From an uncultured Clostridia bacterium (GTDB lineage: Bacteria > Bacillota > Clostridia > TANB77 > CAG-508): a DNA stretch of 64,000 nt. This document shows, one piece after another, positions 20,873-61,075 of this stretch. The stretch covers positions 4,417 through 68,416 of the forward strand of contig CAKPAW010000002.1 of the NCBI GenBank assembly GCA_934133165.1. Reading direction: 5' to 3'. Below the pieces are notes generated by a model. The model saw only the letters and a list, made by a program, of their open reading frames with translations. It was not told where the DNA came from and did not search any database. How positions within the stretch are numbered: position 1 is the stretch's first letter; every line of letters starts with the position of its first letter. Position numbers and translations under genes: made by a program.

Positions 20873-20878
20873 TACATA

Positions 20879-20902
20879 ATATGTGAGTATGTACTCACAT
20901 AT
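20879..20902. terminator. perfect palindrome ATATGTGAGTA-TG-TACTCACATAT overlapping the tnpV-like stop
   Basis: 11-bp arms; unique to R1 flank. Confidence 0.5.
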
Positions 20903-21257
20903 TTTCATTATAAATTAACTCTTTTAATATAATTTCTTCTGCTATATTTTTATAATTATTCATAAGTTTTGCCCACTCAATAGGGTTATTATCTTTATTT
21001 TTTTCAGTCAGTTTTTCATCACTTTTTATATAATTATGCATTAGAGTATTTAATAAATCTTCCGAATTTTTACTTACTGAAATAAGATAATTAGTAAGTT
21101 CTTCTTTCATTAAAAGTGAAGTATATAGTGCTTTTTTATACTCCTTTAAATATGCTAGTCTCGTTCTTCCATATTTGTTTATATTTCCTTTTTTAGTTTC
21201 TTTTAAAGTTAAATCTGGTAATAAATAATCTCCATGTTTTGTATAAGTTATTTCCAT
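20895..21257 (-). CDS. TnpV-family transposon protein (as in Tn4451-like elements)
   Basis: 120 aa; 'GDYLLPDLTL...YGRTRLAYLKEYKKALYTSLL...WAKLMNN...AEEIILKELIY' matches the TnpV pattern; directly downstream of the serine recombinase. Confidence 0.55.
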   Translation of the reverse strand: MEITYTKHGDYLLPDLTLKETKKGNINKYGRTRLAYLKEYKKALYTSLLMKEELTNYLISVSKNSEDLLNTLMHNYIKSDEKLTEKNKDNNPIEWAKLMNNYKNIAEEIILKELIYNENM

Positions 21258-21284
21258 AATTAAATCATTCCTTTCTTATTTTTA

Positions 21285-23069
21285 TTAAATATTTATAATT
21301 GTTTTTGGTATTAATAGTAGGTTATCTACTATGTTGTTATCTTCAATATATGGGCAGTTTATAATCCCATCTTGATAAAAATGTTGTTTTATTAGTTCCA
21401 TATATAGAAGTAAATCTGCTTCAGAATATTTATTATCTTCATATTTTTTTGTAGAAAATATAAAGTAATCTTGTTCTATTTTTTCTAATTCTTGTTTATT
21501 AATTTGTTCTTTATATTTAATTCCAATTTCATTATTATTTAGAATTTCATTAAGATAATTTAAATATTCTTTATTGCTTTTTGATATAAATTCATCAGTA
21601 AATTTTATATTTTTAATTTCAATATTGTAATTTTTGTCTCTTGTTATTTCTAAACTTGCTATTAATCTTTGTATTAATTCTTTCTTTGTTTTTCTATTTA
21701 GGCTATCCCATAAAAATGAAAATCCAAGTTTATTTTGAAATAGAATATTATTATCATTTTGATAATCACATTCTAATTTTTTAAGTAATTCTACTGTGTA
21801 ATCTTTAAAGTCATCATCTGGATCTAGTTTGTTTTTCTTTTGATTTAGTTTGTATATTTCTTTTTTAATAACTTCATTTTTATAGTTAATTACTTCAACA
21901 TTTAGAGTAGAACTTAAATATAGATCTACTAACTTTTTCTCTTGTTGTTTTAGTTTTTCAATAGCATTATCTATATCCTTTATTTCTTTTGTTTTGGTAG
22001 AATTACATACAATAATTTCATTATCTGCATCATACATATATCTAGTTAATTCATTTAAAATACGTCCCAGTTTTTGTTCTATTTTATCTGAACTATAATG
22101 AAGTCCTTTGTATTTACAATTACTATTTTTACAAGTTAAGTGATAATATACTTTTTCTTTTTCTGTACCACTATTTTTAAATGAATTAGTAGAAGAAAGT
22201 ATTCCACCACAATCAGGACATTTAACAATTGATGTAAATAAATGAATATGTTCTCCGTAGTTTGCGTGCTTATTTTTCTCTAAATTTGCTCTTGTAACAT
22301 TCCAAGTTTGTTCATCAATTATAGGTTCACAATAGTTATTAACTTTTAAAACATCTTGAGGTTTTCTTTTATATTTACCATATTCAAATATTCCAACATA
22401 AATAGTATTAGTTAGTATTTTATAGACTCGGTCACTTCGCCATTTACCTTGTTTTAAGTATGAATTATTATCTTTCATAATACTTGCTATGTTTCTTGTA
22501 GAGTGTCCTTTTTTACATAGTTCAAATATTTCTTTTACAACTTCTGCTTCAATAGGTTCTACTTCTAAATGACAAGTTTCTTTATTTCTAATATAGCCAT
22601 AAGGTGCTTTGCTAGGATGAATACGTTCTAATGCCATTTCTTCCATAGCACGTTTAGTTCTTGCTCCAATCTCTTTTCTTTCTCTTTGACTAAATACTAA
22701 ATTCATCCCAAAAATCATTTCACCATTAGCAGTAGATACATCATAAGGCTCAAGTATTAATTCAATCTTAATATCGTGTTCTTCGCAGTAATTAAGTAAC
22801 CAAAAACCATCATAATTGTTTCTAGTTAATCTATCTACTTTAATAGCAATTAACTTATCAATTTTCTTGGATTTGATATCTTTAAGTAATCTTTGCATTT
22901 CAGGTCTCATTAAATCTTTTCCAGAATGTCCTGCATCATTGGATACATCTACAATATCATAATCATTCTTTTCACAATATTCTTTAATCATTCTAAGTTG
23001 TGAATCAATAGAATAACCATTATCTCTTTGGTCGTCAGTAGATACTCTTACATAAACACCACATCTCAT
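21285..23069 (-). CDS. large serine recombinase (TnpX/TndX-like site-specific recombinase)
   Basis: 594 aa; N-terminal resolvase catalytic domain 'CGVYVRVSTDDQRDNGYSIDSQ' (nucleophile Ser), recombinase domain, Cys-rich zinc-ribbon region 'CPDCGG...C..C'. Confidence 0.85.
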   Translation of the reverse strand: MRCGVYVRVSTDDQRDNGYSIDSQLRMIKEYCEKNDYDIVDVSNDAGHSGKDLMRPEMQRLLKDIKSKKIDKLIAIKVDRLTRNNYDGFWLLNYCEEHDIKIELILEPYDVSTANGEMIFGMNLVFSQRERKEIGARTKRAMEEMALERIHPSKAPYGYIRNKETCHLEVEPIEAEVVKEIFELCKKGHSTRNIASIMKDNNSYLKQGKWRSDRVYKILTNTIYVGIFEYGKYKRKPQDVLKVNNYCEPIIDEQTWNVTRANLEKNKHANYGEHIHLFTSIVKCPDCGGILSSTNSFKNSGTEKEKVYYHLTCKNSNCKYKGLHYSSDKIEQKLGRILNELTRYMYDADNEIIVCNSTKTKEIKDIDNAIEKLKQQEKKLVDLYLSSTLNVEVINYKNEVIKKEIYKLNQKKNKLDPDDDFKDYTVELLKKLECDYQNDNNILFQNKLGFSFLWDSLNRKTKKELIQRLIASLEITRDKNYNIEIKNIKFTDEFISKSNKEYLNYLNEILNNNEIGIKYKEQINKQELEKIEQDYFIFSTKKYEDNKYSEADLLLYMELIKQHFYQDGIINCPYIEDNNIVDNLLLIPKTIINI

Positions 23070-23156
23070 AGTTTTCCTCCTTTCATTAAATTTCGAGAAA
23101 TATTAAAATACCTCTCATATGTTTCCTCACAAATAGGCAAAATGTATAGTCTAAAA

Positions 23157-23435
23157 TTAAAATTTTTTCAAAAATTGTGTAATTTCTTTAATATTATACT
23201 TTTGATTATGCTCTTTAATATAAAAAGTCTTATTTGATATTTCATTAACTTTGTATTCAAGTATTGTAAGAGTAGTAGGATATGTAATTTGGTATTCAGT
23301 AGGTATTACTACTTGTAGATTGGTGTGCAATATAGTTTTAATCTGTCCTAATATAACCTTATATTTAAAGTTTTTTAAGATGTTGGTTAAATCTTTATTA
23401 GGTTTTAGATTTTCAATTACTTTAAATTCAAGCAT
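23157..23435 (-). CDS. hypothetical protein (92 aa) upstream of the recombinase
   Basis: ORF only; no family recognised. Confidence 0.3.
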   Translation of the reverse strand: MLEFKVIENLKPNKDLTNILKNFKYKVILGQIKTILHTNLQVVIPTEYQITYPTTLTILEYKVNEISNKTFYIKEHNQKYNIKEITQFLKKF

Positions 23436-23477
23436 GAAAAAAGTCCTCTTTTCTGTGATAAGAGAACTTTTAAAGTT

Positions 23478-23534
23478 TTATATAAAATAAAAACTTACGA
23501 ACAATTAAGTCCGTAAGTTGATTTCAAATGGAGC
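23478..23534. repeat. 57-bp direct repeat DR1 (copy of 25843-25899, 1 mismatch); contains a terminator hairpin and ends 'tggagc'
   Basis: 'ttatataaaataaaaacttacga(a/g)caattaagtccgtaagttgatttcaaatggagc'. Confidence 0.75.
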
Positions 23535-23697
23535 CTTAACTATACATGTTTACGAAATTAAGACTATAAGATTTGATTAAATCTCTCTGATAGATTTATT
23601 ATATCATTTTATTAGATATTTTCAAGGGAGTATAGAAAAAAATGTCTAAATATAGTATAATTTATTTGCAAGAAAATAATATGTGGAGTAGATTAAG

Positions 23698-25299
23698 ATG
23701 AAAAAAAACAACATTAATTTTATATTTGGATTATTAGACAGGAAAAAAGTTGCTTTATGCTTGTTTATTGAGGCCTTTTTAGATTTTATTTACTACGTTA
23801 TTCCTTATACTTTTGCTCTTTTTTTAACAATGCCTTTTACTATTGAAAAAGCAGTAATTGTTGCTTCGATATTTATTGCTTCTAAATCAGTTAGATGTTT
23901 TGTGTTATATTTAGAGAGAAAAGTTATGGATAATTATTTATATGATTACTCTAATGTTCAATATTTAGAATACTACAAAAAATTAACTAAAGTGCCTGTA
24001 GAAACTTTATCTAAGTACCAAACAGGATATTTAGAGAATATAATAGAAAAGATATCTGAGTTAGTTAAAAAGATTCTTAGTGCAGAATATATAGGAATAT
24101 TATTATCTTTTGGATTTTTCTTTCTTACTGTATTTCAACAATCAAAAATTTTATTTGTAACATCGTTAGTATTAAGTATTTTATGTGTTATGATAAGTGT
24201 ATACATATTAAAAAAATCAAATAAACATGTTGAAGATTTATATGATAAAGAATATGAGTATTCATCTGTATATCAAGACTTTATTAGTAATATTAGAACT
24301 GTTAAAGCATTAAATGATGACAAATATTTTGAAAAAATTATATCAAAAGAAGGAAACGAATGTTATAAAAAACAAAACAAGTATGTTAAATGCTATTCAT
24401 TAGAAGAATTAATAAGAAATATTTTAATAGTGATACCATTTGCATTAGCAATTATAAAGGCAGTTATAGATTTATCTAATGGAATTGATACACTAGGAAT
24501 AATTACATTTTATATATCTATTTATTTAGAAATGGGATTTATATTTGATGAATTATCTGGAACAATTGTTAGTGGATTTGAATTAAAAGCATTAAAGAAA
24601 AAATGTATTCAATTATTTAGTAAATTAGATGAAAGAGAATTATTAACTAATTTTAATAAAATAGAATTATCAAATATAGATTTAAAATATAAAGAATCTA
24701 ATTTTAATATTAAAGTTGATAATATGGTAATAAAAAATAAAGATAAAATTTCAATAACTGGGAAGTCTGGTCAAGGAAAAACATCTATAATCAACTTGAT
24801 TTTAGGAAATATAACTACTTATAAAGGAAATGCTAAAATAGATGAAAATAATATGAGAGATTATAGACTTGACATAGGAGTTGTAAGTCAAGAAATAGAA
24901 TTATTTAATATGACTATAAAAGAAAATTTATGTTTAGATAAGAGTATTTCAGATGAAAAAATAATAAATTATTTAAAAGAATTAGAACTAGATGAAATTC
25001 TAATGTTTGAAGATGGAATATATACCATAGTTGGTGAAAAAGGATTAAAACTTTCAACTGGTCAAAAAAGAAGAATAAATATTTTAAGAAGTTATCTAAT
25101 GGAAAAAGATGTTTATATTTTAGATGAGCCTACATCTAATTTAGATAAACATACTGAAGAAATTGTAGTGGATTTTATATTAAAACACTTTAAAGATAAA
25201 ACATTAATAATTGCTACACATAATGAAAAAATAAATGAAATATGTAATAAGTTTTATCACTTTGATAACCATAAATTATTATTAAAAGACAATGCTTAG
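23698..25299 (+). CDS. ABC transporter, fused permease/ATP-binding (exporter type)
   Basis: 533 aa; 6 N-terminal TM helices; Walker A 'GKSGQGKTS', signature 'LSTGQKRR', Walker B 'VYILDEPTSNLD'; last 12 nt plus stop lie inside repeat R2 ('KDNA*'). Confidence 0.75.
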   Translation: MKKNNINFIFGLLDRKKVALCLFIEAFLDFIYYVIPYTFALFLTMPFTIEKAVIVASIFIASKSVRCFVLYLERKVMDNYLYDYSNVQYLEYYKKLTKVPVETLSKYQTGYLENIIEKISELVKKILSAEYIGILLSFGFFFLTVFQQSKILFVTSLVLSILCVMISVYILKKSNKHVEDLYDKEYEYSSVYQDFISNIRTVKALNDDKYFEKIISKEGNECYKKQNKYVKCYSLEELIRNILIVIPFALAIIKAVIDLSNGIDTLGIITFYISIYLEMGFIFDELSGTIVSGFELKALKKKCIQLFSKLDERELLTNFNKIELSNIDLKYKESNFNIKVDNMVIKNKDKISITGKSGQGKTSIINLILGNITTYKGNAKIDENNMRDYRLDIGVVSQEIELFNMTIKENLCLDKSISDEKIINYLKELELDEILMFEDGIYTIVGEKGLKLSTGQKRRINILRSYLMEKDVYILDEPTSNLDKHTEEIVVDFILKHFKDKTLIIATHNEKINEICNKFYHFDNHKLLLKDNA

Positions 25300-25757
25300 T
25301 TGGCATTGTCTTTATAATTTTCAATATGAGGTATATATTTTTTTAGCGTATTATTTTGTGTATTTAAAAATTCGATTTTAGTTCCAATTGCTTGTTCATC
25401 TTCAAAATATCCAAGATGATGAAATTTATTTTTTACTTTGATTAAGCAATTAATATTTTCTTCTAGTGCTTTAACAATATTTTCTATAATATATTCATCT
25501 TTTTTAGGTTTTTGTTCTTCTTTGACTTCTGGAATTTTAATCTCATATCCTATAATTAAATTTCTAATATATTCAGACTGAGATAAGTTTAATTTTGAAG
25601 AATCTCTTTTTAAAATAAACTTCTCATCATCACTTAAAAATACATTAACTTTATTATTTCTTATTCTCATAATTTGAAATCTCCTTTCTAAAAATTTAAG
25701 GGTATGGGAATTCCCATATACGAATTTGTACGGGAGTACAAATTCAGTGCTGGCTAG
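25285..25757. repeat. direct repeat R2 (~470 bp; copy of 20404-20872)
   Basis: same hairpin (25285-25313), MobC-like gene, palindrome TATGGGAATTCCCATA (25703-25718), hairpin GAATTTGTACGGGAGTACAAATTC (25722-25745). Confidence 0.75.
25296..25670 (-). CDS. MobC-family ribbon-helix-helix protein, copy 2
   Basis: 124 aa 'MRIRNNKVNVFLSDDEKFILKRDSSKLNLSQSEYIRNLIIG...'; ~80% identical to copy 1. Confidence 0.6.
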   Translation of the reverse strand: MRIRNNKVNVFLSDDEKFILKRDSSKLNLSQSEYIRNLIIGYEIKIPEVKEEQKPKKDEYIIENIVKALEENINCLIKVKNKFHHLGYFEDEQAIGTKIEFLNTQNNTLKKYIPHIENYKDNAN

Positions 25758-25842
25758 TCATAGATTTTATTCCCATATTCAAAAAAACAAAAAAAGAGGA
25801 TTAAATTATTTTGATAATTTTTTTGCTCTTTTTGAAGATTAT

Positions 25843-25893
25843 TTATATAAAATAAAAACTTACGAGCAATTAAGTCCGTAAGTTGATTTCAAA

Positions 25894-25899
<6 letters not shown>
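25843..25899. repeat. 57-bp direct repeat DR2 overlapping the last 6 nt of tRNA-Gly and its 3' terminator hairpin
   Basis: see DR1. Confidence 0.75.
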
Positions 25900-25967
<68 letters not shown>

Positions 25968-26296
25968 AAATGTAACTAAACATATTATATAACATATAAA
26001 AGATACTTTCAAGTAAAAAATAACAAAAATGACTTGCCAAAATAAAAAACAAATGGTAAAATGAATAAAAATTTAAAGGGGAGTAGCTTATAAACTACTA
26101 ATCAACACCTCGGCAGAAAATGCATGGTTAGTAACCTTTAAGGTAAGCAAGACTTTTAAAGAAAGGAGTACATGTAAATGTAGTGTTTTCTTTAGGAGTC
26201 TTATTTTTTATATTCTAGAAAAGACTTTTAAGAAGAGATAGAGGATTTTAAGAAAAAATAGACTATTAAACAAAAAAATGGAAAAAATAAAATTAG

Positions 26297-26328
26297 ATGA
26301 CGCAAAAGGAAACGTCCCTTTTGTGCCA
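26297..26328. repeat. mini-repeat copy A (gatgacgcaaaaggaaacgtcccttttgtgcc) in the 5' leader of the Ca-ATPase gene
   Basis: shares 'gatgacgcaaaa-gaaacgtcc' with copy D and 'ggaaacgtccc' with copies B2/E. Confidence 0.65.
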
Positions 26329-29934: not shown

Positions 29935-29963
29935 AATAATTTACAAAATATGTAAATTAATTA

Positions 29964-29992
29964 TTGACATTGCTAATAAAAGAGTATATAAT
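29964..29992 (+). promoter_or_regulatory. sigma-A type promoter (TTGACA-17-TATAAT) driving the tandem-repeat RNA region
   Basis: perfect hexamers, 17-bp spacer. Confidence 0.55.
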
Positions 29993-30046
29993 GAATATAC
30001 TAATAGAGATAGTAATTTAAACTATCATAGATGTGCTGACATCTTA

Positions 30047-30150
30047 AAAAATCCGAAACACCTGTAAGACGAATGTGCTTACCGTTGGCGGACAACAGAA
30101 AAATCCGAAACACTTGTAAGACGAATGTGCTTACCGTTGACGGACAACAG
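30047..30150 (+). repeat. two tandem 52-nt repeats (aaaaatccgaaacac(c/t)tgtaagacgaatgtgcttaccgttg(g/a)cggacaacag); candidate structured ncRNA or leader
   Basis: 2 mismatches between units; each unit has internal stem 'gtaag...cttac'; followed by a hairpin plus T7 run at ~30164-30207. Confidence 0.7.
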
Positions 30151-30280
30151 AAAAATCAGTAATAAAAATATAGGGCTTATAATTTTTTATAGGCTCTATA
30201 TTTTTTTATTATATTTAAATAAAGAATATAAAAAACAATAGCAATTTATAAAATATATTGCTATAATAAAGGAGGTAAAA

Positions 30281-32631: not shown

Positions 32632-35600
32632 GTGGGAAATTTTGTACACTTACATATACATAGTGAATTTAGTTTATTAGATGGAGCAAACAGAATAAAA
32701 GATATACCAGTAATTGCAAAAGAACTTGGAATGGATGCAATTGCTATTACTGACCATGGAGCAATGTTTGGAGTTATAGATTTTTATAAAGCATGTAAAG
32801 CAAACGGAGTAAAACCAATAATAGGTTGTGAAGTATATGTAGCACCACGAACAAGACATGACAAAGATCCTAAATTAGATAGTAAATATAATCATTTAAT
32901 ATTACTTGCAAAAGACATGACAGGTTATAGGAACTTATCAAAATTAGTATCGTTAAGTTATACAGAAGGTTTTTATTATAAACCAAGAATAGATAAAGAA
33001 ATATTAGAAAAATATCATGAAGGATTAGTATGCTCTAGTGCTTGTTTAGCAGGAGAGATAAGCCAAGCAATACTTGCAAATGATATGGAAGAAGCAAAAA
33101 AAGCAGCATTATGGTTTAAAAATTTATTTGGAGAAGATTATTATTTAGAAATACAAAATAATGGTGTGAAAGAGCAAGTATTAGTTAATCAAAAACTAAT
33201 AGAACTTTCAAAAGAATTAAACATACCATTAGTTGCCACAAATGATGCACACTATTCAAGAAGAGAAGACGCATACAATCATGAAGTACTTTTATGTATT
33301 CAAACAGGAAAGAAAATGTCAGACGAAGACAGGATGAGATTTGACACAGACGAGCTTTATATAAAATCACCAGAAGAAATGAGTGATTATTTTTCAAATG
33401 TACCAGAAGCAATAGAAAATACAGTAAAAATAGCAGAAAAATGTAATATTGAATTTGAATTTGGACATACAATTCTGCCAAATTACGATGTACCAGAAGG
33501 ATATGCAACACATTACGACTACATAGAAGACTTAACAAAAAAAGGTTTAATAAAGAGATATGGGACAAAAGGGACAGATTCACCATTAGGGACGTTTCCT
33601 AATGGAGCGGGTGAAGAAAAAAATAAAAAAATAGAGTTACCAAAAGGGACAGATTCACCTTTAAGAAACGTCCCTAATGGTAATGGTAGCTATGAAGAGT
33701 TGCCAGAAGAGATTAGAAAAAGAGCAGAATATGAATTAGGTGTTATTAAGAAAATGGGATATGTAGACTATTTCTTGATAGTATGGGATTATATAAATTA
33801 TGCTAAAACACATGATATTCCAGTAGGACCAGGTCGTGGTTCTGGTGCAGGTTCTATTGTTGCATATGCAATAGGAATAACAGATATAGATCCTATAAAA
33901 TATAATCTACTTTTTGAAAGATTTTTAAATCCTGAAAGAATTAGTATGCCCGATTTTGACGTTGACTTTTGTTATGAAAAAAGAGATAAAGTAATAGAAT
34001 ATGTTTGTAAAAAATACGGTTATGACCATGTATCACAAATTATAACATTTGGTACAATGTCAGCAAGAATGGTAATCCGTGATGTAGCAAGAGTTCTAGA
34101 TGTACCATATGCAGAAGCAGATAAACTTGCTAAAATGATACCAAATGAAATACATATTACAATTAAAAAGGCATTAGAGCAAAATAAAGAGTTAAATACA
34201 CTTTATGAAACAGATACAGAAATTAAGAAACTATTAGATATAGCAATGGCATTAGAAGGAATGCCACGTCAGGCTTCAACACACGCATGTGGAATAGTTA
34301 TAACAAAAGATCCAGTAGATACTTATGTTCCTTTATATGTAAGAGATGGCAATATTTCTACACAATATATAATGACTACACTAGAAGAACTTGGACTTTT
34401 AAAAATGGACTTTTTAGGTTTAAGAACATTAACAGTTATAAAAGATACCATAGATTTAGTAAAAAAAGACAAAGGCATAGATGTAGAATTTGACAAAAAT
34501 ATGAATGACCCTAAAGTCTATAAATTATGGCAAGAGGGAAATTCTGTTGGAATATTCCAGTTTGAATCACAAGGAATGACAAACTTTATGAGAGAGTTAA
34601 AGCCAGATAGCTTAGAAGATATAATAGCAGGGGTGTCACTTTACAGACCTGGACCAATGGATCAAATTCCAAGATACATAGCAAACAAAAAAGACCCTGA
34701 ACATGCAGTATACACACATCCTGCATTAAAGCCAATACTAGAGGTTACTTATGGTTGTATGGTATACCAAGAGCAAGTTATGCAAATAGTAAGAGATTTA
34801 GCAGGATACTCATTAGGTAGAGCAGATTTAGTTCGTCGTGCTATGGGTAAGAAAAAGCTAGATGTAATGGCAAAAGAAAGAGAAATATTTATAAATGGCC
34901 AAGTAGATGAAAATGGTAATGTTGTAGTTCCTGGATGTGTAAGAAACGGAATAGATGAAAAAAGTGCAAATAAAATATTTGATGAAATGGCTGAATTTGC
35001 TAAATATGCCTTCAACAAATCACATGCCGCAGCATATGCAGTCGTATCATATCAAACAGCATATTTAAAAGCATATTATCCAGAAGAATTTATGGCAGCA
35101 ACTTTAAACAGCTTTTTAGGAAACTTGGATAAAGTCCCATATTATATAGAAGAATGTAAAAGACTAAAAATAGACATATTAAAGCCAGACATAAATAAAA
35201 GTGAAACAAAATTTACAGTTGATAATGGCAAAATACGTTTTGGATTAGGGAGTATAAAAAACGTAGGAGTCGCAGCAGTGAATACAGTTGTAGAAGAAAG
35301 ACAAAAAAATGGCAAATACAAGTCATTTACAGATTTCTGTGAAAGAATTCAGGCAGAAGCGGTAAATAAAAAATGTATAGAAAGTTTAATAAAATCTGGA
35401 GCATTTGATGAATTTGAACAAACAAGAAGTACATTAATGGCATCATTTGAAGACATAATAGATGCAATTTCAGATAGTTCAAGAAAAAACATAAAAGGTC
35501 AAGTATCAATGTTTGATTTAGGTGGATTAGGTGGAAGCGAAAGTTCATCTGAAGAAGACGAAAAACAACTTGAAAAATTAAAATATTCATATACAACACT

Positions 35601-36339
35601 TAAAGAATACACAGATAAAGAGCTTTTATCAATGGAAAAAGAAATGCTAGGAATATATATATCAGGACATCCTTTATCAGAATTAAAAGAAATTATTGAA
35701 AAAAATACAAATATAAGCACATTAAAAATAAGAGAAGGATTAGAAGAACTAGCACAAACAGGAAAATTTCCGTACAAAGATGGACAAATAGTAAAGTTCA
35801 TAGGAATAATAAATTCAATAAAGAAAAAGTACACAAAAAATAACAAAATAATGGCTTTTGTTACACTAGAAGATTTGTATGGAAGTATGGAAACAGTAGT
35901 ATTTGAGAATGTATATACACAATCAGCAAATAGTTTAATAGAAGACAATATAGTGCTAGTAGAAGGACGACTAAGCATTAGAGAAGACGAAGAAAGCGTA
36001 AGCATAGTAGCCAGCAAAATACAAAATGTTGACGCAAAAGGGACGTTTCCTAATGCGTCATCTGTCCCTTTTGCTTCATCACTTGCTGGTACAAAAAATG
36101 AAGGATTAAGAAGAATAAATAAGCTAGAAATAGATATTACCAATTTAAGCGAAGAAATGAAAGATAAATTGAGAGGAGCACTTAAATTCTTTGCAGGAGA
36201 CAGAAACAATACAACATTATTTATATTAAATGGAGAAAGCAAATTACCTGCAGGAGGAATTTTCTTAAATGGAAACACTTTAAATGAAATAGAAGAAATA
36301 GTAGGAAAAGAAAATATCTTAACAGAGGATAGTCACTAA
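32632..36339 (+). CDS. dnaE: DNA polymerase III alpha subunit (DnaE type)
   Basis: 1235 aa; PHP domain 'FVHLHIHSEFSLLDGA', polymerase core, OB fold; GTG start with RBS 'agggag'; carries in-frame mini-repeat insertions. Confidence 0.9.
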   Translation: MGNFVHLHIHSEFSLLDGANRIKDIPVIAKELGMDAIAITDHGAMFGVIDFYKACKANGVKPIIGCEVYVAPRTRHDKDPKLDSKYNHLILLAKDMTGYRNLSKLVSLSYTEGFYYKPRIDKEILEKYHEGLVCSSACLAGEISQAILANDMEEAKKAALWFKNLFGEDYYLEIQNNGVKEQVLVNQKLIELSKELNIPLVATNDAHYSRREDAYNHEVLLCIQTGKKMSDEDRMRFDTDELYIKSPEEMSDYFSNVPEAIENTVKIAEKCNIEFEFGHTILPNYDVPEGYATHYDYIEDLTKKGLIKRYGTKGTDSPLGTFPNGAGEEKNKKIELPKGTDSPLRNVPNGNGSYEELPEEIRKRAEYELGVIKKMGYVDYFLIVWDYINYAKTHDIPVGPGRGSGAGSIVAYAIGITDIDPIKYNLLFERFLNPERISMPDFDVDFCYEKRDKVIEYVCKKYGYDHVSQIITFGTMSARMVIRDVARVLDVPYAEADKLAKMIPNEIHITIKKALEQNKELNTLYETDTEIKKLLDIAMALEGMPRQASTHACGIVITKDPVDTYVPLYVRDGNISTQYIMTTLEELGLLKMDFLGLRTLTVIKDTIDLVKKDKGIDVEFDKNMNDPKVYKLWQEGNSVGIFQFESQGMTNFMRELKPDSLEDIIAGVSLYRPGPMDQIPRYIANKKDPEHAVYTHPALKPILEVTYGCMVYQEQVMQIVRDLAGYSLGRADLVRRAMGKKKLDVMAKEREIFINGQVDENGNVVVPGCVRNGIDEKSANKIFDEMAEFAKYAFNKSHAAAYAVVSYQTAYLKAYYPEEFMAATLNSFLGNLDKVPYYIEECKRLKIDILKPDINKSETKFTVDNGKIRFGLGSIKNVGVAAVNTVVEERQKNGKYKSFTDFCERIQAEAVNKKCIESLIKSGAFDEFEQTRSTLMASFEDIIDAISDSSRKNIKGQVSMFDLGGLGGSESSSEEDEKQLEKLKYSYTTLKEYTDKELLSMEKEMLGIYISGHPLSELKEIIEKNTNISTLKIREGLEELAQTGKFPYKDGQIVKFIGIINSIKKKYTKNNKIMAFVTLEDLYGSMETVVFENVYTQSANSLIEDNIVLVEGRLSIREDEESVSIVASKIQNVDAKGTFPNASSVPFASSLAGTKNEGLRRINKLEIDITNLSEEMKDKLRGALKFFAGDRNNTTLFILNGESKLPAGGIFLNGNTLNEIEEIVGKENILTEDSH
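33566..33605 (+). repeat. mini-repeat copy B1 inside dnaE (caaaagggacagattcaccattagggacgtttcctaatgg), in frame, encoding KGTDSPLGTFPNG
   Basis: seen directly; core in 'gggacgtttcc' orientation. Confidence 0.7.
33641..33680 (+). repeat. mini-repeat copy B2 inside dnaE (caaaagggacagattcacctttaagaaacgtccctaatgg), in frame, encoding KGTDSPLRNVPNG
   Basis: core inverted relative to B1 ('gaaacgtccc'). Confidence 0.7.
36031..36075 (+). repeat. mini-repeat copy C inside the dnaE 3' region (gacgcaaaagggacgtttcctaatgcgtcatctgtcccttttgc)
   Basis: 10-bp inverted repeat caaaagggac/gtcccttttg; encodes DAKGTFPNASSVPFAS. Confidence 0.65.
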
Positions 36340-36386
36340 TTAGGAAAATGTCATAGTGTGATATAGTTTAAAAAAATAAAAATTGA

Positions 36387-36433
36387 CACAAAAGGGACAG
36401 ATGACGCAAAATGAAACGTCCATTTTGCGTCAG
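36387..36433 (+). repeat. mini-repeat copy D between dnaE and the HD-CYTH gene (cacaaaagggacagatgacgcaaaatgaaacgtccattttgcgtcag)
   Basis: internal inverted repeat tgacgcaaaatg/cattttgcgtca. Confidence 0.65.
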
Positions 36434-36448
36434 AAAAGGATGTTGAAA

Positions 36449-38653
36449 ATGAATGAAAAATTAGTAATAAATGATGAAATACATGGAGATATTGAATTAG
36501 ATGGAGTGTACAAAGAATTAGTAGAATCAAAAGATTTTCAAAGACTAAAAGACATAATCCAAACTGGTACATCTTACTTAAAATATCCAGATATGAAGTA
36601 TGAAACTAGATTTGACCACAGCATTGGATCTTATTATTTAATTTGTAAAATTATAGAAAGTATAGAAAAAAAGCTAAATGCACAAGGAATAAAAATAAGA
36701 GATGATGAAAAGGAGATTGCTAAAATTGCAATGCTTCTTCATGATGTTGGTCATGGTGCATATTCACATACTTTGGAAAAAATAACAGGGTATTCCCATG
36801 AAAAGAGAAGTATTGATATTGTAAAAGATGAAAATACTGAAATACATCAAATTTTGAAAAAATATTATGGGGAAGAGTTTACAACAAAGGTAGGAAAATT
36901 TTTAGAAAAAGTATATGAATACAAAAAAGAAGATAAAAAACAAAATGGTATTAAAATAAAAAATAATAGAGTAAGTTTGAAAGATTTATTAGCATCTTTT
37001 GTTTCTAATAATATTGATGCAGATAGATTAGATTATTTAGTTAGAGATTCTCAAAAAGCAGGTTACAAGATACTAACAGAAGTTGATAAATTAATAGATA
37101 GTTTTGAATTTGTTTTAGATGTAGATAAAATTATTGTGGCAATACCAGAAGAAAAGAAAATATTTTTAGATATGGCAATATTAGAAAGGTCTAGAAATTA
37201 TAAAGAAATATATTTTTGTGAACCATCTGTAATAGGAGACCATGTTCTAGATTTCTTGTTAGAAGAAATTAGAAATAATAAAGATGAAATACCAAAGGAA
37301 GTAAATCCTATATTGTATAAATTTTTAACTAATAAAAAAGCAGATTTTACAACTGAAGAATATATGCAAATAGTTGAAACTCCAATGAGAGAAACTTTGG
37401 AAAGCATAAGAGACAATTCTACAAATGAAAAGCTAAAAGAATTGTGTGACATAGCAAACTTCACTAAGACATATCAAACATTAAATACAGATAAAAATGA
37501 ACAATATATTCGTTATTTACTACATAAAGCTATTCCAGAAATATCTGAACAAACTGATGGAATTATAGAAGAAACAAGATGTGTAAAGCCATATAAATCA
37601 AACGAACATGAAAATATAAATATTATTACATGTAATGGAATAGAAGATTATAAAGATATAGAGCAAAATTTAATTAAGTTAGAACCATTTTATGTAAGAA
37701 CAGTTGCAGTTAGTAAAGAAATGCTTAGATTAGAATTAGGAATATCTAAAGAAGAATTTAAAGAAAAATATGAAAAAATAGTAGATGAAGTAATTAGTAC
37801 AGTTATAAAATCTAAAGATGAATTTGAACTTAGATATGTTTTAACAAAAGGAATAACATATGGTGAAGAGATAAAAGAAAAAATAGAACAAAAATATGAA
37901 ATAATAGATGAAGCTAAATATATGTCAAAAGATATGTATTATGATAATCCTGAAAATTATGAATTGTTAGAAGGTAAAAAGACTTTAAGAGTAAGAAAAG
38001 GGGCAACATTTCATAAAAGAGAAGAAACATATGGATTTAAAAAGACAAGAGCAACATATAAAACTTACAAAAAAGATGATCAAGATGGTTATACAGTTAG
38101 AAGAAAAGAAGAACAAATAGGTGAAGATGATCAGTTAAGTACATATACAAATTTCTTAAATGAAATGAAAATAAATATAGAAGACTTAAAACCTATGTTA
38201 GAAGTAAATAACTTACGTTATTTGTTTACAGTAAATGTAAATGGAGTATTAGTAGATATATCATTTAATACAGCACATTATATAAATCAAGTACATGAAA
38301 TGTTTGGAACCATTGGAACAATAGAAATTAAACCAAGAGACAATAAAGTATATGATAGACTAAGCTTACTAGAGTTAAGACAATACTTAGAAGAGCAGAT
38401 TCCAGAACTAGAAAAATATTTATCTAACACAAATGTATATGAAATAGGAATGTTAGATACATATGAAAAGTATAAAAAAGGTTATATAATAAGTGAAGAA
38501 GTTAAGGAAGATGAAGAAAATCATAAAGAAGCAACAGAAAAATTAGATGAAATTTTAGAAAAGGCTAAAAATAGAAAAGATTTTGCATGGCTAAATGAAA
38601 TTCCAGAAGTAAAGCAAGAAAATAGACCAACATACCAAGGAGAAGAAATATAA
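36449..38653 (+). CDS. HD-domain (dGTPase/SAMHD1-like) phosphohydrolase fused to a C-terminal CYTH-like (triphosphate tunnel) domain
   Basis: 'RFDHSIGSYYL...LLHDVGHGAYSH' HD motifs; C-terminal 'LRVRKG...YTVRRKEE...GTIEIKPRD' has a CYTH-like charged beta-strand pattern; start at MNEKLVINDEIHG (ORF-track start 36383 would translate repeat copy D). Confidence 0.55.
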   Translation: MNEKLVINDEIHGDIELDGVYKELVESKDFQRLKDIIQTGTSYLKYPDMKYETRFDHSIGSYYLICKIIESIEKKLNAQGIKIRDDEKEIAKIAMLLHDVGHGAYSHTLEKITGYSHEKRSIDIVKDENTEIHQILKKYYGEEFTTKVGKFLEKVYEYKKEDKKQNGIKIKNNRVSLKDLLASFVSNNIDADRLDYLVRDSQKAGYKILTEVDKLIDSFEFVLDVDKIIVAIPEEKKIFLDMAILERSRNYKEIYFCEPSVIGDHVLDFLLEEIRNNKDEIPKEVNPILYKFLTNKKADFTTEEYMQIVETPMRETLESIRDNSTNEKLKELCDIANFTKTYQTLNTDKNEQYIRYLLHKAIPEISEQTDGIIEETRCVKPYKSNEHENINIITCNGIEDYKDIEQNLIKLEPFYVRTVAVSKEMLRLELGISKEEFKEKYEKIVDEVISTVIKSKDEFELRYVLTKGITYGEEIKEKIEQKYEIIDEAKYMSKDMYYDNPENYELLEGKKTLRVRKGATFHKREETYGFKKTRATYKTYKKDDQDGYTVRRKEEQIGEDDQLSTYTNFLNEMKINIEDLKPMLEVNNLRYLFTVNVNGVLVDISFNTAHYINQVHEMFGTIGTIEIKPRDNKVYDRLSLLELRQYLEEQIPELEKYLSNTNVYEIGMLDTYEKYKKGYIISEEVKEDEENHKEATEKLDEILEKAKNRKDFAWLNEIPEVKQENRPTYQGEEI

Positions 38654-55877: not shown

Positions 55878-56786
55878 ATGGCAAATGAAAGACAAGAAGA
55901 ATTACAATTCCAAACAAAAGAGAAAAAATACAATTTAAAAAATGATGTAATATTCCAAACATTCTTTAGTCGTAAAGGAAATGAAGAGTTTCTAATAGAC
56001 TTTTTAAATGCACTATTGAATAAAGATATAAAATCCATAGAGGTACGAGAAGAAGTAAATTTAGAAAGATTAAGCAAAGAAGAAAAAGGTGGAAGACTAG
56101 ACTTACAAGCAAAATTAGAAGATGGAACAATAATATCAATAGAAATGCAACTAAGAAACGAATATAATATAGAAGAAAGAACTACGCTATATAGTGGAAA
56201 GGTAATATCAAGAGAAACTGAAAGAGGAACAGACTACGAAGATATAAATCAAGTAATAATGATAAACATATTAGGGTATAATTTCTTAAAGATAGAAGAT
56301 TACATATCAGAGACAGCAATAGTGTTAGAGAAGCATAGAGACTATGAAGTGCTAACAGGATTAAAGTGGTATTTTATAGAGCTACCAAAGTTTAGAAAGC
56401 AAAATCCAGATATGAATGAAAAAATAAATCAATGGTTAGCATTTATAGATGATTATAATAAGGAGATGATCAAGGTGGCAGAAGAAAAAAATGATAAACT
56501 AAAAAAAGCAAGAATTGAAATGAACTATTTAACAGGAGATGCAGAAGTAAGAAGACTAGCCGAATTAAGAGAGAAATGGGAAATGGATAGAATAAGTGCT
56601 ATTAATCATGCCACAAGAAAAGGAAAAGAAATACGGGGAAAAAATACGGAGAAAGAAAACGGAAGAATAGAAGAAAGAAAAGAAGTAGCAAAAGAAATGA
56701 TAAAAAAAGGTTTGGATATTAATTTGATATGTGAAATTACAAAATTAACAAAAGAAGAAATAATGAAAATAGAAAACGAAAAATAA
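55878..56786 (+). CDS. Rpn-family recombination-promoting nuclease / putative transposase (PD-(D/E)XK, YhgA-like)
   Basis: 'KNDVIFQTFFSRKGNEEFLIDFLNALL...GGRLDLQAKLEDGTIISIEMQ' typical of the family. Confidence 0.6.
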   Translation: MANERQEELQFQTKEKKYNLKNDVIFQTFFSRKGNEEFLIDFLNALLNKDIKSIEVREEVNLERLSKEEKGGRLDLQAKLEDGTIISIEMQLRNEYNIEERTTLYSGKVISRETERGTDYEDINQVIMINILGYNFLKIEDYISETAIVLEKHRDYEVLTGLKWYFIELPKFRKQNPDMNEKINQWLAFIDDYNKEMIKVAEEKNDKLKKARIEMNYLTGDAEVRRLAELREKWEMDRISAINHATRKGKEIRGKNTEKENGRIEERKEVAKEMIKKGLDINLICEITKLTKEEIMKIENEK

Positions 56787-60073: not shown

Positions 60074-60253
60074 GTTTTATATTGTATAAGTTACCTAAGG
60101 TAAAAAAGAGAAAAAGAGTACTAATAAGTACCCCTTCTCAAGCAATATTTAGTTTTTAGTTGCTGATAAAATTTTGCGTTAGCAAAATGATATACATATA
60201 TAATAACATAAAATTATGTAAAATACAAGAAAGAGAAAGGATTTTGTAGAAAA

Positions 60254-61075
60254 ATGTCAAAAAATGAAAAGTACAATGAACAAAGAATGCAAAAAAAGAA
60301 ACAAAATAACCAAAAGGGACAGATTAACCAAAAGGAAACGTCCCCAAAGGAGCAGGTAGAAGGAAGAAATGCTGTTTTAGAATTACTGGAGTCTGGAAAA
60401 GATATAAATAAAATATACATAGAATCTGGTGAAAAAACTGGATCAATAAATAAAATAATAGCATTAGCAAAAGAAAATAAAGTATTAATAAGCTACATAG
60501 ATAAAAACAAAATGAGGCAAATGGCAATAACAGAAAACTATCAGGGAGTAATAGCAGTTGTACCACCTTATGAATATGTAGAAGTAGAAGATATATTACA
60601 AGAGGCAAAAGACAAAAATGAAGATCCTTTTGTTGTAATATTGGACGGAATAGAAGATATTCATAATTTGGGAGCAATAATAAGAACAGCAGAAACTGCT
60701 GGAGTGCATGGAATAATAATTCCTAAGAGGAGAGCAGCATCTGTAAATGCTACAGTAAATAAAGTGTCTGCAGGGGCTGTAGAACATATGAAAATAGCAA
60801 GAGTAAATAATTTAAATGAAACAATAAAAGAACTAAAAGAATCAGGACTTTGGATTTGTGGTACAGACATGGATACAGAAACTTATTATTATAATCAAGA
60901 TTTAAAAGGGCCACTTGCAATAGTAATTGGAAGTGAGGGCTTTGGAATGAGCAGACTTGTAAAAGAAAATTGTGACTTTATAGTAAAAATTCCTATGAAA
61001 GGTAAAATAACATCTTTAAATGCTTCAGTATCAGCAGGAATAGTTATATATGAAGCAGTAAAACAAAGAAATTAA
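60254..61075 (+). CDS. rlmB: 23S rRNA 2'-O-methyltransferase, TrmH/SpoU family (RlmB-like) with N-terminal basic extension containing mini-repeat copy E
   Basis: SpoU substrate-binding 'EGRNAVLELLESGKDINKIYI', methylase motifs 'ILDGIEDIHNLGAIIRTA', 'GSEGFGMS'. Confidence 0.8.
   Translation: MSKNEKYNEQRMQKKKQNNQKGQINQKETSPKEQVEGRNAVLELLESGKDINKIYIESGEKTGSINKIIALAKENKVLISYIDKNKMRQMAITENYQGVIAVVPPYEYVEVEDILQEAKDKNEDPFVVILDGIEDIHNLGAIIRTAETAGVHGIIIPKRRAASVNATVNKVSAGAVEHMKIARVNNLNETIKELKESGLWICGTDMDTETYYYNQDLKGPLAIVIGSEGFGMSRLVKENCDFIVKIPMKGKITSLNASVSAGIVIYEAVKQRN
60311..60350 (+). repeat. mini-repeat copy E inside the rlmB N-terminal coding region (caaaagggacagattaaccaaaaggaaacgtccccaaagg), encoding KGQINQKETSPKE
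   Basis: seen directly. Confidence 0.65.

What the first reader, a model, noticed from the sequence alone, without database searches (positions are those of the whole stretch)
60311..60350. The same mini-repeat forms part of the N-terminal extension of the TrmH/RlmB methyltransferase
Copy E encodes KGQINQKETSPKE within a basic, low-complexity N-terminal extension that precedes the SpoU substrate-binding domain. This shows the element is tolerated in coding sequence of a second, unrelated gene. In copies A and D it sits in 5' leaders (Ca-ATPase, HD-CYTH gene). The ORF-track start of the 36383 ORF (MTQKGQMTQNETS...) is simply translated repeat.
Basis: seen in the sequence. Interest (0 to 1): 0.55.

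Follow-up and report, generated by a model that had tools for sequence, protein, structure and literature searches.

The report
Palindromic repeat translated inside rlmB
A 50-base palindromic "junk DNA" repeat that is scattered through this gut Clostridia genome has been fixed in frame near the start of an rRNA methyltransferase gene. It is translated there as a floppy tail, a known behaviour of REP-type repeats seen here in a new bacterial group.

Summary
Window 60307-60354 is a copy of a ~50-nt nested-palindromic dispersed repeat (core GGGACAGAT-N11-AAACGTCC). The window holds six copies: two in 5' leaders, three inside dnaE and one inside rlmB. The rlmB copy lies downstream of a conserved RBS and ATG, with no alternative in-frame start after it, so it is translated (QKGQINQKETSPKE). 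It sits in a ~31-residue tail predicted to be disordered, ahead of the SpoU substrate-binding domain.

Of the 120 closest RlmB cluster representatives, 68 carry the repeat-encoded segment. Fifty lack it, most with tails of 8-11 residues.

The family occurs in low-GC uncultured gut Clostridia. Its copies sit next to stop codons and ribosome-binding sites with strong polarity. About a fifth to a quarter of sites are in frame inside real genes (DnaE, AddA-like, Mfd, MiaB-like and others).

In related genomes a RAYT/TIRYT-type Y1 (HUH) transposase with a C-terminal HTH is bracketed by inverted copies of the element. Across 58 metagenomic homologues, 40 show flanking inverted repeats, nearly all containing GGGAC.

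The repeat is therefore a REP/TIR-type element, probably mobilised by that transposase. It is a new member of a known kind and of moderate interest.

The parts
60307..60354 (+). Copy E of the dispersed nested-palindromic repeat, in frame inside rlmB (codons ~19-34). Unit 1 is TAACCAAAAGGGAC at 60307-60320, unit 2 is TTAACCAAAAGGAAAC at 60324-60339, and the degenerate inverted unit 3 is GTCCCCAAAGG at 60340-60350.
   Evidence: nhmmer E=1.1e-13 and an exact match to the pattern. The fold is weak (-8.1 kcal/mol, z -1.2) because the 3' arm is no longer complementary. The close strain L114 keeps the hairpin CCTTTTGG-AAACGTC-CCAAAAGG.
60254..61075 (+). rlmB/TrmH-group-3-type 2'-O-methyltransferase gene (273 aa) with a ~31-residue N-terminal tail that contains copy E.
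   Evidence: Pfam SpoU_sub_bind 35-108 and SpoU_methylase 126-266. 1GZ0 aligns from aa 32. pLDDT is below 50 for residues 1-32.
60232..60256 (+). Conserved RBS (GAAAGGA) and ATG start of rlmB, upstream of the repeat.
   Evidence: The same context is present in repeat-bearing (L114, L105, L115, L116) and repeat-free (L112) orthologues.
26295..26328 (+). Copy A, partial (inner hairpin only), in the 5' leader directly before the RBS of the P-type ATPase gene (ATG 26346).
   Evidence: nhmmer E=3.7e-7, model positions 18-51. Hairpin -11.5 kcal/mol, z -3.3. Sequence; Pfam.
33562..33606 (+). Copy B inside dnaE. Its 3' half (loop) is flipped: GGGACGTTTCC instead of GGAAACGTCCC.
   Evidence: Split nhmmer hits on both strands; sequence. 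It is absent from the 95%-identical DnaE of L116.
33636..33683 (+). Copy C inside dnaE (reads PKGTDSPLRNVPNG), between the PHP and polymerase core domains.
   Evidence: nhmmer E=1.7e-15. Hairpin -19 kcal/mol, z -4.0. The site is empty in L116, and L106 has a single copy.
36030..36079 (-). Copy X, antisense inside the 3' part of dnaE (read on the + strand as AKGTFPNASSVPFAS), after the OB fold.
   Evidence: nhmmer E=1.8e-14. Hairpin -22.1 kcal/mol, z -4.7. L116 has only a shorter, degenerate segment there.
36383..36432 (+). Copy D in the 5' leader of the HD-domain gene (RBS AAGGA ~36437, ATG 36449). The mechanical ORF start TTG 36383 lies inside it.
   Evidence: nhmmer E=4.9e-11. 12-bp hairpin, -16.3 kcal/mol, z -4.4. 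Promoter-like TTGACA-18-CAAAAT lies within it.
32632..36339 (+). dnaE (DNA polymerase III alpha), host of copies B, C and X.
   Evidence: Pfam PHP, DNA_pol3_alpha, finger, HHH_6 and OB; alignment A1.

Best explanation
Copy E is one member of a family of ~50-nt nested-palindromic dispersed repeats. These are REP/TIR-type elements specific to a clade of low-GC uncultured gut Clostridia.

The element has two direct units and one inverted ~15-18-nt unit: [X]-AAAAGG-GAC-AG / [X]-AAAAGG-AAAC / GTCCC-CAATG-[X']. The third unit can pair with either of the first two. The arms X vary between copies and genomes but co-vary within a copy. The core GGGACAGAT...AAACGTCC is constant.

Shown:
- The family is dispersed at about one copy per 10 kb in the window.
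- It sits preferentially with its 3' end against a gene boundary, either just upstream of an RBS or abutting the stop codon of an opposite-strand gene.
- A substantial minority of copies are fixed in frame in variable linkers or tails of real proteins.
- In rlmB the copy lies a few codons after the conserved start and is translated as part of a disordered Lys/Gln-rich tail in front of the L30e-like substrate-binding domain.

Inferred:
- Copies are generated by a RAYT/TIRYT-type Y1 (HUH) tyrosine transposase acting on the single-stranded hairpin form. Related genomes carrying this family encode such a gene bracketed by inverted copies of the element.
- Only insertions in permissive frames and permissive protein regions survive selection.
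- The rlmB copy is a passenger that is now decaying. It has lost its 3' arm complementarity and has no demonstrated function for the enzyme.
For: Family and chance:
- Pattern matches in the window are far above expectation.
- The genome scan returned more than 105 stretches, most of them in low-GC gut Clostridia MAGs. The rest are single chance hits in high-GC genomes.

Anatomy and co-variation:
- X1:X3 complementarity is 4.58 of 7, against 3.42±0.12 for shuffled partners.
- X2:X3 complementarity is 4.28, against 3.41±0.08.
- X1=X2 identity is 4.75, against 3.86±0.09.
- Hairpins are strong for copies A, C, X and D (z -3.3 to -4.7).

Coding status of E: conserved start and RBS, no downstream start, the 1GZ0 alignment and the disordered tail.

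Presence and absence:
- Of the 120 closest RlmB cluster representatives, 68 carry the segment, 2 carry part of it and 50 lack it.
- The dnaE sites are empty in a 95%-identical orthologue.

Other in-frame hosts confirmed by Pfam: MiaB-like radical-SAM, AddA/UvrD-like, Mfd, U32 peptidase and GH15. Only 3 of the 6 frames are used, all giving hydrophilic or Pro/Gly-rich peptides.

Polarity:
- 26 sites abut an opposite-strand stop codon, against 2 in the sense arrangement.
- 22 sites (+9 ORF-call artefacts) lie sense upstream of a start codon, against 3 antisense.

Transposase link:
- Y1_Tnp scores 49-52 bits against a cutoff of 23.
- NCBIfam 'REP-associated tyrosine transposase' gives E=1e-20 and 3e-16, against ~19 bits for IS200.
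- The HUH motif and catalytic Tyr are invariant, and the best PDB hit is TnpA_REP 4ER8.
- The gene is bracketed by inverted elements in L017, L053 and L121.
- In 40 of 58 metagenomic homologue loci the downstream flank shares an inverted word of at least 12 nt with the upstream 500 nt. Only 10 share a direct word. Nearly all shared words contain GGGAC.
- GGGAC/GTCCC density is 8.3 per kb downstream and 3.9 per kb upstream, against 1.2 per kb in the rest of the loci.

Literature parallels:
- REPs lie close to ORF 3' ends, supply stop codons, and occur intragenically in DNA-repair and RNA-modification genes. TIRtrons carry a GGGGWSAS motif (PMC3733652).
- Y1 subclass 2.1 has a C-terminal HTH (PMC6006769).
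Against: - No RAYT gene lies in the 64-kb window, and its presence in this very genome was not tested.
- The NCBIfam score is below the equivalog cutoff (74 against 80 bits).
- No transposition intermediate or recent insertion polymorphism with clean junctions was seen. The filled and empty dnaE junctions share host-like CAAAAG/AATG, so the boundaries are ambiguous.
- Genome-specific arm variants are shared even by the rlmB copy at the same site. This needs either gene conversion or repeated insertion, and neither was shown.
- Site counts may include diverged orthologous sites counted more than once.
- Some 'CDS antisense' calls may be spurious ORFs.
Confidence: 0.8

Rival explanations
1. The repeat in rlmB is not translated. 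The true start codon lies after it, so copy E is a 5'-leader element like A and D. Di Nocera et al. suspected this for many N-terminal REPs.
For: - Family members very often sit just upstream of an RBS in the sense orientation.
- E is followed by an SD-like AAAGGAG.
- PMC3733652 notes that many REPs at ORF N-termini are probably extragenic.
Against: - No in-frame ATG, GTG or TTG lies between the element and QVEGRN. The next in-frame start would delete half of the SpoU_sub_bind domain.
- The RBS and ATG context upstream is conserved between repeat-bearing and repeat-free orthologues.
- All seven repeat-bearing orthologous DNA sequences keep the frame open from that ATG, despite inserts of different length.
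Confidence: 0.07
2. The element is primarily a cis-acting RNA structure, such as a leader or 3'-UTR hairpin that controls translation, ribosome stalling at stop codons or mRNA stability. On this view it is maintained by selection, and E would modulate early rlmB translation.
For: - Orientation and position bias is strong, next to RBSs and within 0-12 nt of stop codons.
- The arms co-vary.
- REPs within 15 nt of stop codons reduce translation in E. coli (Liang et al. 2015, as cited in PMC12306157).
Against: - There is no Rfam match, even at E≤10.
- Copies occur on both strands inside genes and in tandem expansions.
- E itself folds weakly (z -1.2).
- No U-tract or terminator signature was found.
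- The association with a Y1 transposase explains the family's spread without any RNA function.

This rival is compatible with exaptation of some intergenic copies. It does not explain how the family originated.
Confidence: 0.1
3. The similarity reflects a selected peptide module, such as a basic RNA- or DNA-binding tail shared by RlmB and DnaE, rather than a DNA repeat.
For: The host proteins bind nucleic acids, and the encoded segments are hydrophilic.
Against: The same DNA is read in three different frames or strands, giving unrelated peptides (KGTDSPLRNVPNG, QKGQINQKETSP, PLGTFPNxSSVPFG). It also occurs in non-coding leaders and after stop codons.
Confidence: 0.01

Closest known systems
REP/REPIN elements with RAYT (TnpA_REP) transposases of Proteobacteria (E. 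coli, Pseudomonas, Stenotrophomonas)
   Same: - Both are short, dispersed, imperfect palindromes with a conserved motif, present in many copies.
- Both are often paired in inverted orientation.
- Both lie close to the 3' ends of ORFs and sometimes supply the stop codon.
- Both are associated with a Y1 HUH transposase gene bracketed by inverted copies, a REPtron arrangement (PMC8266576, PMC5581495, PMC3733652).
   Different: - This family has no GTAG tag. Its conserved parts are GGGACAGAT and AAACGTCC.
- The element is a three-unit nested palindrome of ~50 nt, not a single hairpin of 20-40 nt.
- The host is Clostridia.
- The transposase carries a C-terminal HTH and scores below the NCBIfam equivalog cutoff.
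- About 17-29% of sites are intragenic.
TIRtrons / TIRYT (Di Nocera et al. 2013) = TnpA_Y1 subclass 2.1 with C-terminal HTH (Quentin et al. 2018)
   Same: - Both have a Y1 transposase with a C-terminal HTH, flanked by inverted repeats that share GGGGWSAS. Here the motif is GGGGACAG/AGGGACAG.
- Some genomes also carry moderately abundant dispersed families of the same repeat (PMC3733652, PMC6006769).
   Different: - Neither paper's passages that I read list Clostridial families of this kind.
- For subclass 2.1, Quentin et al. found no REP-like sequences near the gene.
- Here the repeat is abundant, hairpin-forming and partly intragenic.
Rickettsia palindromic elements (RPE), including RPE-4/-6 = CGTC-tagged REPs
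   Same: - Both are palindromic repeats fixed in frame inside housekeeping genes, including dnaE and repair genes.
- Both encode extra hydrophilic peptide segments in permissive regions (PMC10969869, PMC3733652).
   Different: - The sequence, size (RPE-1 is ~100-150 bp) and taxon all differ.
- RPE/CGTC repeats have no associated transposase, whereas this family has a candidate one.
- CGTC lies in the conserved loop here, not at an end.
Classical bacterial MITEs (Correia, RUP, BOX and similar)
   Same: Both are small, non-autonomous, have inverted termini, and occur in intergenic and occasionally intragenic sites.
   Different: No target-site duplication was found above chance. There is no DDE-type parent IS, and the size is at the lower limit.

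Membership tests
REP / REPtron (RAYT-associated repetitive extragenic palindromes) | Short palindromic repeat with a common consensus, in many dispersed copies per genome | tested here: met
   Six copies in 64 kb. About 100 unique copies in low-GC Clostridia MAG loci. Hairpin z-scores of -3.3 to -4.7 for four of the six window copies.
REP / REPtron (RAYT-associated repetitive extragenic palindromes) | Conserved GTAG tetranucleotide 5' of the palindrome | tested here: not met
   The 54-column consensus AATGTCCCAAAAGGGACAGATTACCCAAAAGGAAACGTCCCCAATGGGACATAA has no GTAG. The invariant blocks are GGGACAGAT and AAACGTCC.
REP / REPtron (RAYT-associated repetitive extragenic palindromes) | Seldom overlaps protein-coding regions (extragenic) | tested here: not met
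   Of 98 distinct sites, 13+4 are sense and up to 11 antisense inside ORFs. The hosts are confirmed as real genes by Pfam.
REP / REPtron (RAYT-associated repetitive extragenic palindromes) | Y1 (HUH + Tyr) transposase gene bracketed by inverted copies of the repeat | tested here: met
   Met in related genomes, namely L017, L053 and L121. 40 of 58 homologue loci have inverted flanking words. It was not tested in the genome of the window itself, and no such gene lies in the window.
REP / REPtron (RAYT-associated repetitive extragenic palindromes) | Preferential location close to the 3' ends of ORFs | tested here: met
   At 26 sites a stop codon ends 0-12 nt from the element, and at 13 of them within ±3 nt.
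TIRtron / TIRYT (TnpA_Y1 subclass 2.1) | Y1 transposase with an additional C-terminal helix-turn-helix domain | tested here: met
   The proteins are 255-263 aa. Y1_Tnp covers residues ~13-126. The C-terminal HTH_23/HTH_19/HTH_3/Sigma70_r4 hits have E=1e-3 to 1e-4, below Pfam cutoffs.
TIRtron / TIRYT (TnpA_Y1 subclass 2.1) | Flanking inverted repeats sharing the motif GGGGWSAS | tested here: inconclusive
   The flanks contain GGGGACAG or AGGGACAG in this family. More distant homologues have GGGGACGG/GGGACGTT, which fits only in part.
Rickettsia palindromic elements (RPE) | In-frame insertion of a palindromic repeat into unrelated protein-coding genes | tested here: met
   The hosts are DnaE (two sites), RlmB, MiaB-like, AddA-like, Mfd, U32 peptidase and GH15.
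Rickettsia palindromic elements (RPE) | RPE consensus sequences, ~100-150 bp, Rickettsia lineage | tested here: not met
   The element is ~50 nt and occurs in Clostridia MAGs. RPE size is as described in PMC10969869. I did not align it against RPE consensus sequences.
Classical MITE | Terminal inverted repeats plus target-site duplication | tested here: not met
   Outer arms of 10-19 nt are present, but identical flanks are no more frequent than with shuffled partners (k=2: 12 against 9.9; k=5: 0).
Known structured RNA families (Rfam 15) | Match to a curated covariance model | tested here: not met
   At the gathering threshold there were only 4 tRNAs in the window. At E≤10 over 33500-36500 there was nothing relevant.
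RlmB / TrmH group 3 methyltransferase (host gene) | N-terminal L30e-like substrate-binding domain plus SPOUT methylase domain | tested here: met
   PF08032 at 1.6e-19 and PF00588 at 5.6e-45. 1GZ0 at E=9.3e-51.

The most novel reading that the evidence does not exclude
This may be an active REP-RAYT-like system of a kind not yet described for Clostridia. Its features would be a GGGAC/CGTC-core, three-unit palindrome served by an HTH-bearing Y1 transposase, with three notable behaviours:
- Its repeats undergo concerted evolution within each genome.
- They are placed with strict polarity against stop codons and ribosome-binding sites.
- They routinely colonise DNA-repair and RNA-modification genes in frame.

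If true, it would offer a tractable model for how RPE-like 'protein-coding palindromes' arise. RPE/CGTC repeats themselves have no known transposase. It would also offer a test of whether such copies are exapted for translational control.
Probability: 0.25. Interest if true: 0.6.

Novelty: new member of a known kind. Interest (0 to 1): 0.4.

Why it matters
Three points follow from this result.

- **Annotation.** In these poorly known gut Clostridia, N-terminal extensions, odd linkers in essential proteins (DnaE, Mfd, AddA, MiaB, RlmB) and false ORF starts can all come from one selfish repeat family. This matters for gene calling and for interpreting protein variation between strains. One example is the QK/LL flip between RlmB variants that are 97-98% identical.

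- **Range of the system.** It extends REP/TIR-Y1 transposase systems to uncultured Clostridia. It also links in-frame 'coding palindromes', long known from Rickettsia without a mobilising enzyme, to a candidate transposase that could be tested biochemically.

- **Convergence.** It reproduces in a distant phylum two earlier observations: that such repeats hug stop codons, and that they turn up in DNA-repair and RNA-modification genes.

Tried and rejected
- **Rfam.** I searched at the gathering threshold and at E≤10. Nothing matched, so the element is not a known riboswitch or leader.
- **Viral contigs.** The pattern gave only two N10-spaced hits, which I take to be chance matches, so there is no phage link.
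- **Target-site duplication.** None was found above chance, so I rejected a classical MITE.
- **Intrinsic terminator.** There is no consistent U-tract after the hairpin in either orientation, and the scan tool flagged only copy A on the minus strand.
- **Promoter.** Only copy D has TTGACA-18-CAAAAT. Nothing was found for A, and nothing inside E. It is not a family trait.
- **Period-18 tandem structure upstream of E.** TRF sees only a weak 9-nt A-rich repeat. By eye, KKQNNQ resembles a decayed unit, but this is unproven.
- **The 57 nt replacing the element core in L115.** It is unique among the held sequences and remains unexplained.
- **Repeat-free genomes.** I tested whether repeat-free rlmB loci belong to repeat-free genomes. 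There are 0 copies in 14-21 kb around L112, L113, L115 and L118. However, repeat-bearing loci also have no second copy in their 20 kb, so the test is uninformative.
- **MiaB empty-site comparison.** This failed because the MiaB-like gene in L112 is a paralogue.
- **RAYT in the window.** None was found.
- **Liang et al. 2015.** I could not retrieve it directly and cite it through PMC12306157.
- **BsmFI-type GGGAC restriction site.** I considered a link only as an idea and did not pursue it.
Full report
**Observation.** The stretch 60311-60350 reads CAAAAGGGACAGATTAACCAAAAGGAAACGTCCCCAAAGG. It lies inside ORF 60254-61075 (273 aa), where it encodes QKGQINQKETSPK(E). Pfam places SpoU_sub_bind at residues 35-108 and SpoU_methylase at 126-266, so the segment sits in an N-terminal extension. 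A degenerate 32-nt pattern derived from it matches three places in the window against 0.00 expected. GGGACAGAT and GAAACGTCC are each over-represented. A profile built from 98 copies found in other genomes detects exactly six elements in the window. These are A 26295-26328 (partial), B 33562-33606, C 33636-33683, X 36079-36030 (minus strand), D 36383-36432 and E 60307-60354 (E=1.1e-13). B, C and X are inside dnaE (ORF 32632-36339). A and D end a few bases before the RBS of a P-type ATPase gene and of an HD-domain gene.

**Is copy E really translated?** The context 'agaaaggattttgtagaaaaATGtcaaaaaa' is conserved in syntenic lepA-rlmB loci, both with the repeat (L114, L105, L115, L116) and without it (L112). 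No in-frame ATG, GTG or TTG lies between the repeat and the conserved QVEGRN. The next in-frame start would remove much of the substrate-binding domain. E. coli RlmB (1GZ0) aligns only from residue 32. An AlphaFold model built with 41 orthologues gives pLDDT below 50 for residues 1-32 and a confident fold from residue 33. The repeat is therefore translated as part of a disordered tail. Di Nocera et al. caution that many N-terminal REPs are really leaders (PMC3733652). That caution does not apply here.

Of the 120 closest RlmB cluster representatives (at least 73% identity), 68 carry the repeat-encoded KGQ..ETS segment, always in the same frame and place. Two carry a remnant. Fifty lack it, and 36 of those have tails of only 8-11 residues, for example MSKKEELQDQVEGRN.
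- Extra units occur, as in P0104 (KGQMNKKGQISQKETSP) and P0094 (PMDN repeats).
- Variants 97-98% identical to the window's protein differ by QK versus LL. At the DNA level this is CCAAAAGG versus CCTTTTGG, with L105 showing CCATTTGG. It is a four-base flip of box 2, not a set of point mutations.
- In the window the 3' arm is no longer complementary, and copy E folds weakly (-8.1 kcal/mol, z -1.2). Copies A, C, X and D give z -3.3 to -4.7.

**It is a DNA element, not a peptide motif.** dnaE copy C reads PKGTDSPLRNVPNG in another frame. Copy X is on the opposite strand and is read as AKGTFPNASSVPFAS. Copies A and D are non-coding. A DnaE that is 95% identical (L116) lacks B and C (RYGTK--EKNE--SSSYEELPEE) and has only a short degenerate segment at site X. 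L106 has one copy where the window and L041 have two, 75 bp apart.

**Anatomy.** The consensus is AATGTCCCAAAAGGGACAGATTACCCAAAAGGAAACGTCCCCAATGGGACATAA. It consists of two direct units and one inverted unit, giving two alternative hairpins that share the 3' arm. The arms X differ between copies but co-vary within a copy:

| Measure | Observed | Shuffled partners |
|---|---|---|
| X1:X3 complementarity (of 7) | 4.58 | 3.42±0.12 |
| X2:X3 complementarity | 4.28 | 3.41±0.08 |
| X1=X2 identity | 4.75 | 3.86±0.09 |

Arm variants are genome-specific. Identity at variable columns is 0.72 within genomes and 0.57 between them. The rlmB copy of the Hadza species shares that genome's private CCGAAAGG/CCGAAAAG/CCCAACGG variants. 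This implies either concerted evolution or repeated insertion at the same site, and I could not tell which. No target-site duplication exceeds chance.

**Distribution.** An exact-pattern scan of one genome per species returned more than 105 stretches. Most are in low-GC uncultured Clostridia or Clostridiaceae gut MAGs from rabbit, mouse and human, including Hadza. The remainder are single chance matches in high-GC genomes. I grouped the copies into 98 distinct sites:

| Context | Sites |
|---|---|
| Element 3' end abuts the stop codon of an opposite-strand gene | 26 |
| Sense arrangement after a stop codon | 2 |
| Sense, 0-40 nt upstream of a start codon | 22 (+9 mechanical 'start inside element' ORF calls, like 36383) |
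| Antisense upstream of a start codon | 3 |
| Sense inside a CDS | 13 (+4 N-terminal) |
| Antisense inside a CDS | up to 11 |

- For the 26 after-stop sites, the stop codon ends 0-12 nt from the element, and at 13 of them within ±3 nt.
- By my own binomial arithmetic the two asymmetries have p of about 3e-6 and 2e-4. Diverged orthologous sites may be counted twice.
- Intragenic hosts confirmed by Pfam include MiaB-like radical-SAM, AddA/UvrD-like helicase-nuclease, Mfd, U32 peptidase, GH15 and M16 peptidase.
- Only three of the six frames are used, all giving hydrophilic or Pro/Gly-rich peptides. I infer that selection filters insertions.

**What the family is.** I clustered the ORFs of the element-bearing loci. 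This revealed a 255-263-aa protein in L017, L053 and L088, with a partial copy in L016.
- Its motifs are YHVIIRG, NHVH (HUH) and RYIHKNP.
- Pfam Y1_Tnp scores 49-52 bits against a cutoff of 23.
- NCBIfam 'REP-associated tyrosine transposase' gives E=1e-20 and 3e-16 (74 and 59.5 bits, below the equivalog cutoff of 80). IS200 scores about 19 bits.
- The C-terminus has weak HTH hits, and the best PDB sequence match is E. coli TnpA_REP 4ER8.
- The gene's stop codon lies in or at an element in the sense orientation, and an inverted copy lies 170-500 nt upstream. This is a REPtron or TIRtron arrangement.

A metagenome scan with the three-protein alignment gave 80 loci. In 40 of the 58 loci with usable flanks, the downstream flank shares an inverted exact word of at least 12 nt with the upstream 500 nt. 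Only 10 share a direct word. Nearly all shared words contain GGGAC(A/G)G or GGGACGTT. GGGAC/GTCCC density is 8.3 per kb downstream and 3.9 per kb upstream, against 1.2 per kb elsewhere in the loci. The reverse complement of the window element's invariant loop is GGGACGTTTCC.

**Comparison with the literature.**
- Di Nocera et al. (PMC3733652) described GTAG- and CGTC-tagged REPs. These lie within 20 bp of ORF 3' ends and can supply stop codons. They occur in frame inside genes, notably DNA synthesis and repair genes (UvrD, RecBCD, DnaE) and RNA-modifying genes.
- The same paper described TIRtrons, in which RAYT-like TIRYT genes are flanked by inverted repeats sharing GGGGWSAS.
- Quentin et al. 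(PMC6006769) place HTH-bearing Y1 proteins in subclass 2.1 and found no REPs next to them.
- Bertels et al. (PMC5581495) note RAYT group 1 in Clostridia, with only low-frequency flanking 16-mers.
- RPEs are the classic in-frame coding palindromes (PMC10969869).

The present family fits this known kind. It differs in lacking GTAG, in its three-unit architecture, in its host clade and in its high intragenic fraction.

**Mechanism.**
- Shown: the family's anatomy, dispersal and polarity, the in-frame coding copies, and the association with a Y1 transposase in related genomes.
- Inferred: the Y1 enzyme mobilises the hairpin form of the element on single-stranded DNA. Selection retains only copies in permissive frames and regions. 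The rlmB copy is a decaying passenger encoding a harmless disordered tail. Some leader or after-stop copies may have been exapted, as in E. coli, where REPs within 15 nt of a stop codon reduce translation (Liang et al. 2015, as cited in PMC12306157).
- Not shown: a RAYT gene in the window's own genome (none lies in the window), any transposition event, or any function.

**Verdict.** The deeper identity is a REP/TIR-type repeat family with a candidate Y1 transposase. It is a new member of a known kind and of moderate interest.

Noticed in passing
window 30047-30150 (context 29960-30215): Two tandem 52-nt units, 96% identical (AAAAATCCGAAACACCTGTAAGACGAATGTGCTTACCGTTGGCGGACAACAG). They lie between a sequence I read by eye as TTGACA...TATAAT promoter-like and a long terminator-like hairpin, in an intergenic region. 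No Rfam match. The fold has z -5.1, though much of that comes from the terminator. This is a candidate small RNA with two repeated modules.
   Followed up: partly
window ~20454-25967: A probable integrated mobile element next to a tRNA gene (25897-25967, minus strand). It has a large serine recombinase ORF at 21285-23069 (minus strand). It carries duplicated 300+92-nt blocks (20454-20878 and 25339-25762, 87% identical) encoding paralogous small proteins. A 58-nt direct repeat (23477-23534 and 25842-25899, 98% identical) abuts the tRNA.
   Followed up: partly
L001 5625-6533 (= window ~55878-56786) versus L002/L114: A PDDEXK_2/Rpn-like (recombination-promoting nuclease or transposase-like) gene is present in the window-type contig. 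It is absent from otherwise syntenic contigs of the same or a sister strain, so this is a presence/absence polymorphism.
   Followed up: no
window 60074-60253 versus L114/L105: The lepA-rlmB spacer is ~180 nt in the window, L112 and L116, and carries a terminator-like hairpin (detected on the minus strand) and a promoter-like site. In L114 and L105 it is only ~21 nt, which may mean rlmB is co-transcribed with lepA there.
   Followed up: no
L115 10055-10135 (GCA_963621995.1; RlmB 92% identical): At the exact position of the element core, a unique 57-nt segment lies between AACCAAAAGGAC and CAAAAGGAGCAG. It encodes DFLAVRTESKLQIKHAEVAS. It matches nothing else among the held sequences, and its origin is unknown.
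   Followed up: partly
L088 ~3800-3870 and 4860-4930; L122, L125, L142 flanks of the Y1 transposase gene: Some related genomes carry a simpler palindrome next to the transposase gene, for example TCCCAATTAGGGACAGTCCCTAATTGGGA, which is the outer helix only. This suggests that the 50-nt three-unit element arose by internal duplication of one arm within a simple REP-like hairpin.
   Followed up: partly
L074 (U32 peptidase), L043 (AddA-like), L008/L035 (Mfd), L107/L081/L051 (MiaB-like), L053/L088 (GH15): In-frame element copies are concentrated in DNA-repair or replication genes and in RNA-modification genes. This echoes the enrichment reported for GTAG/CGTC REPs in Proteobacteria (PMC3733652). 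L074 has two tandem copies in frame.
   Followed up: partly
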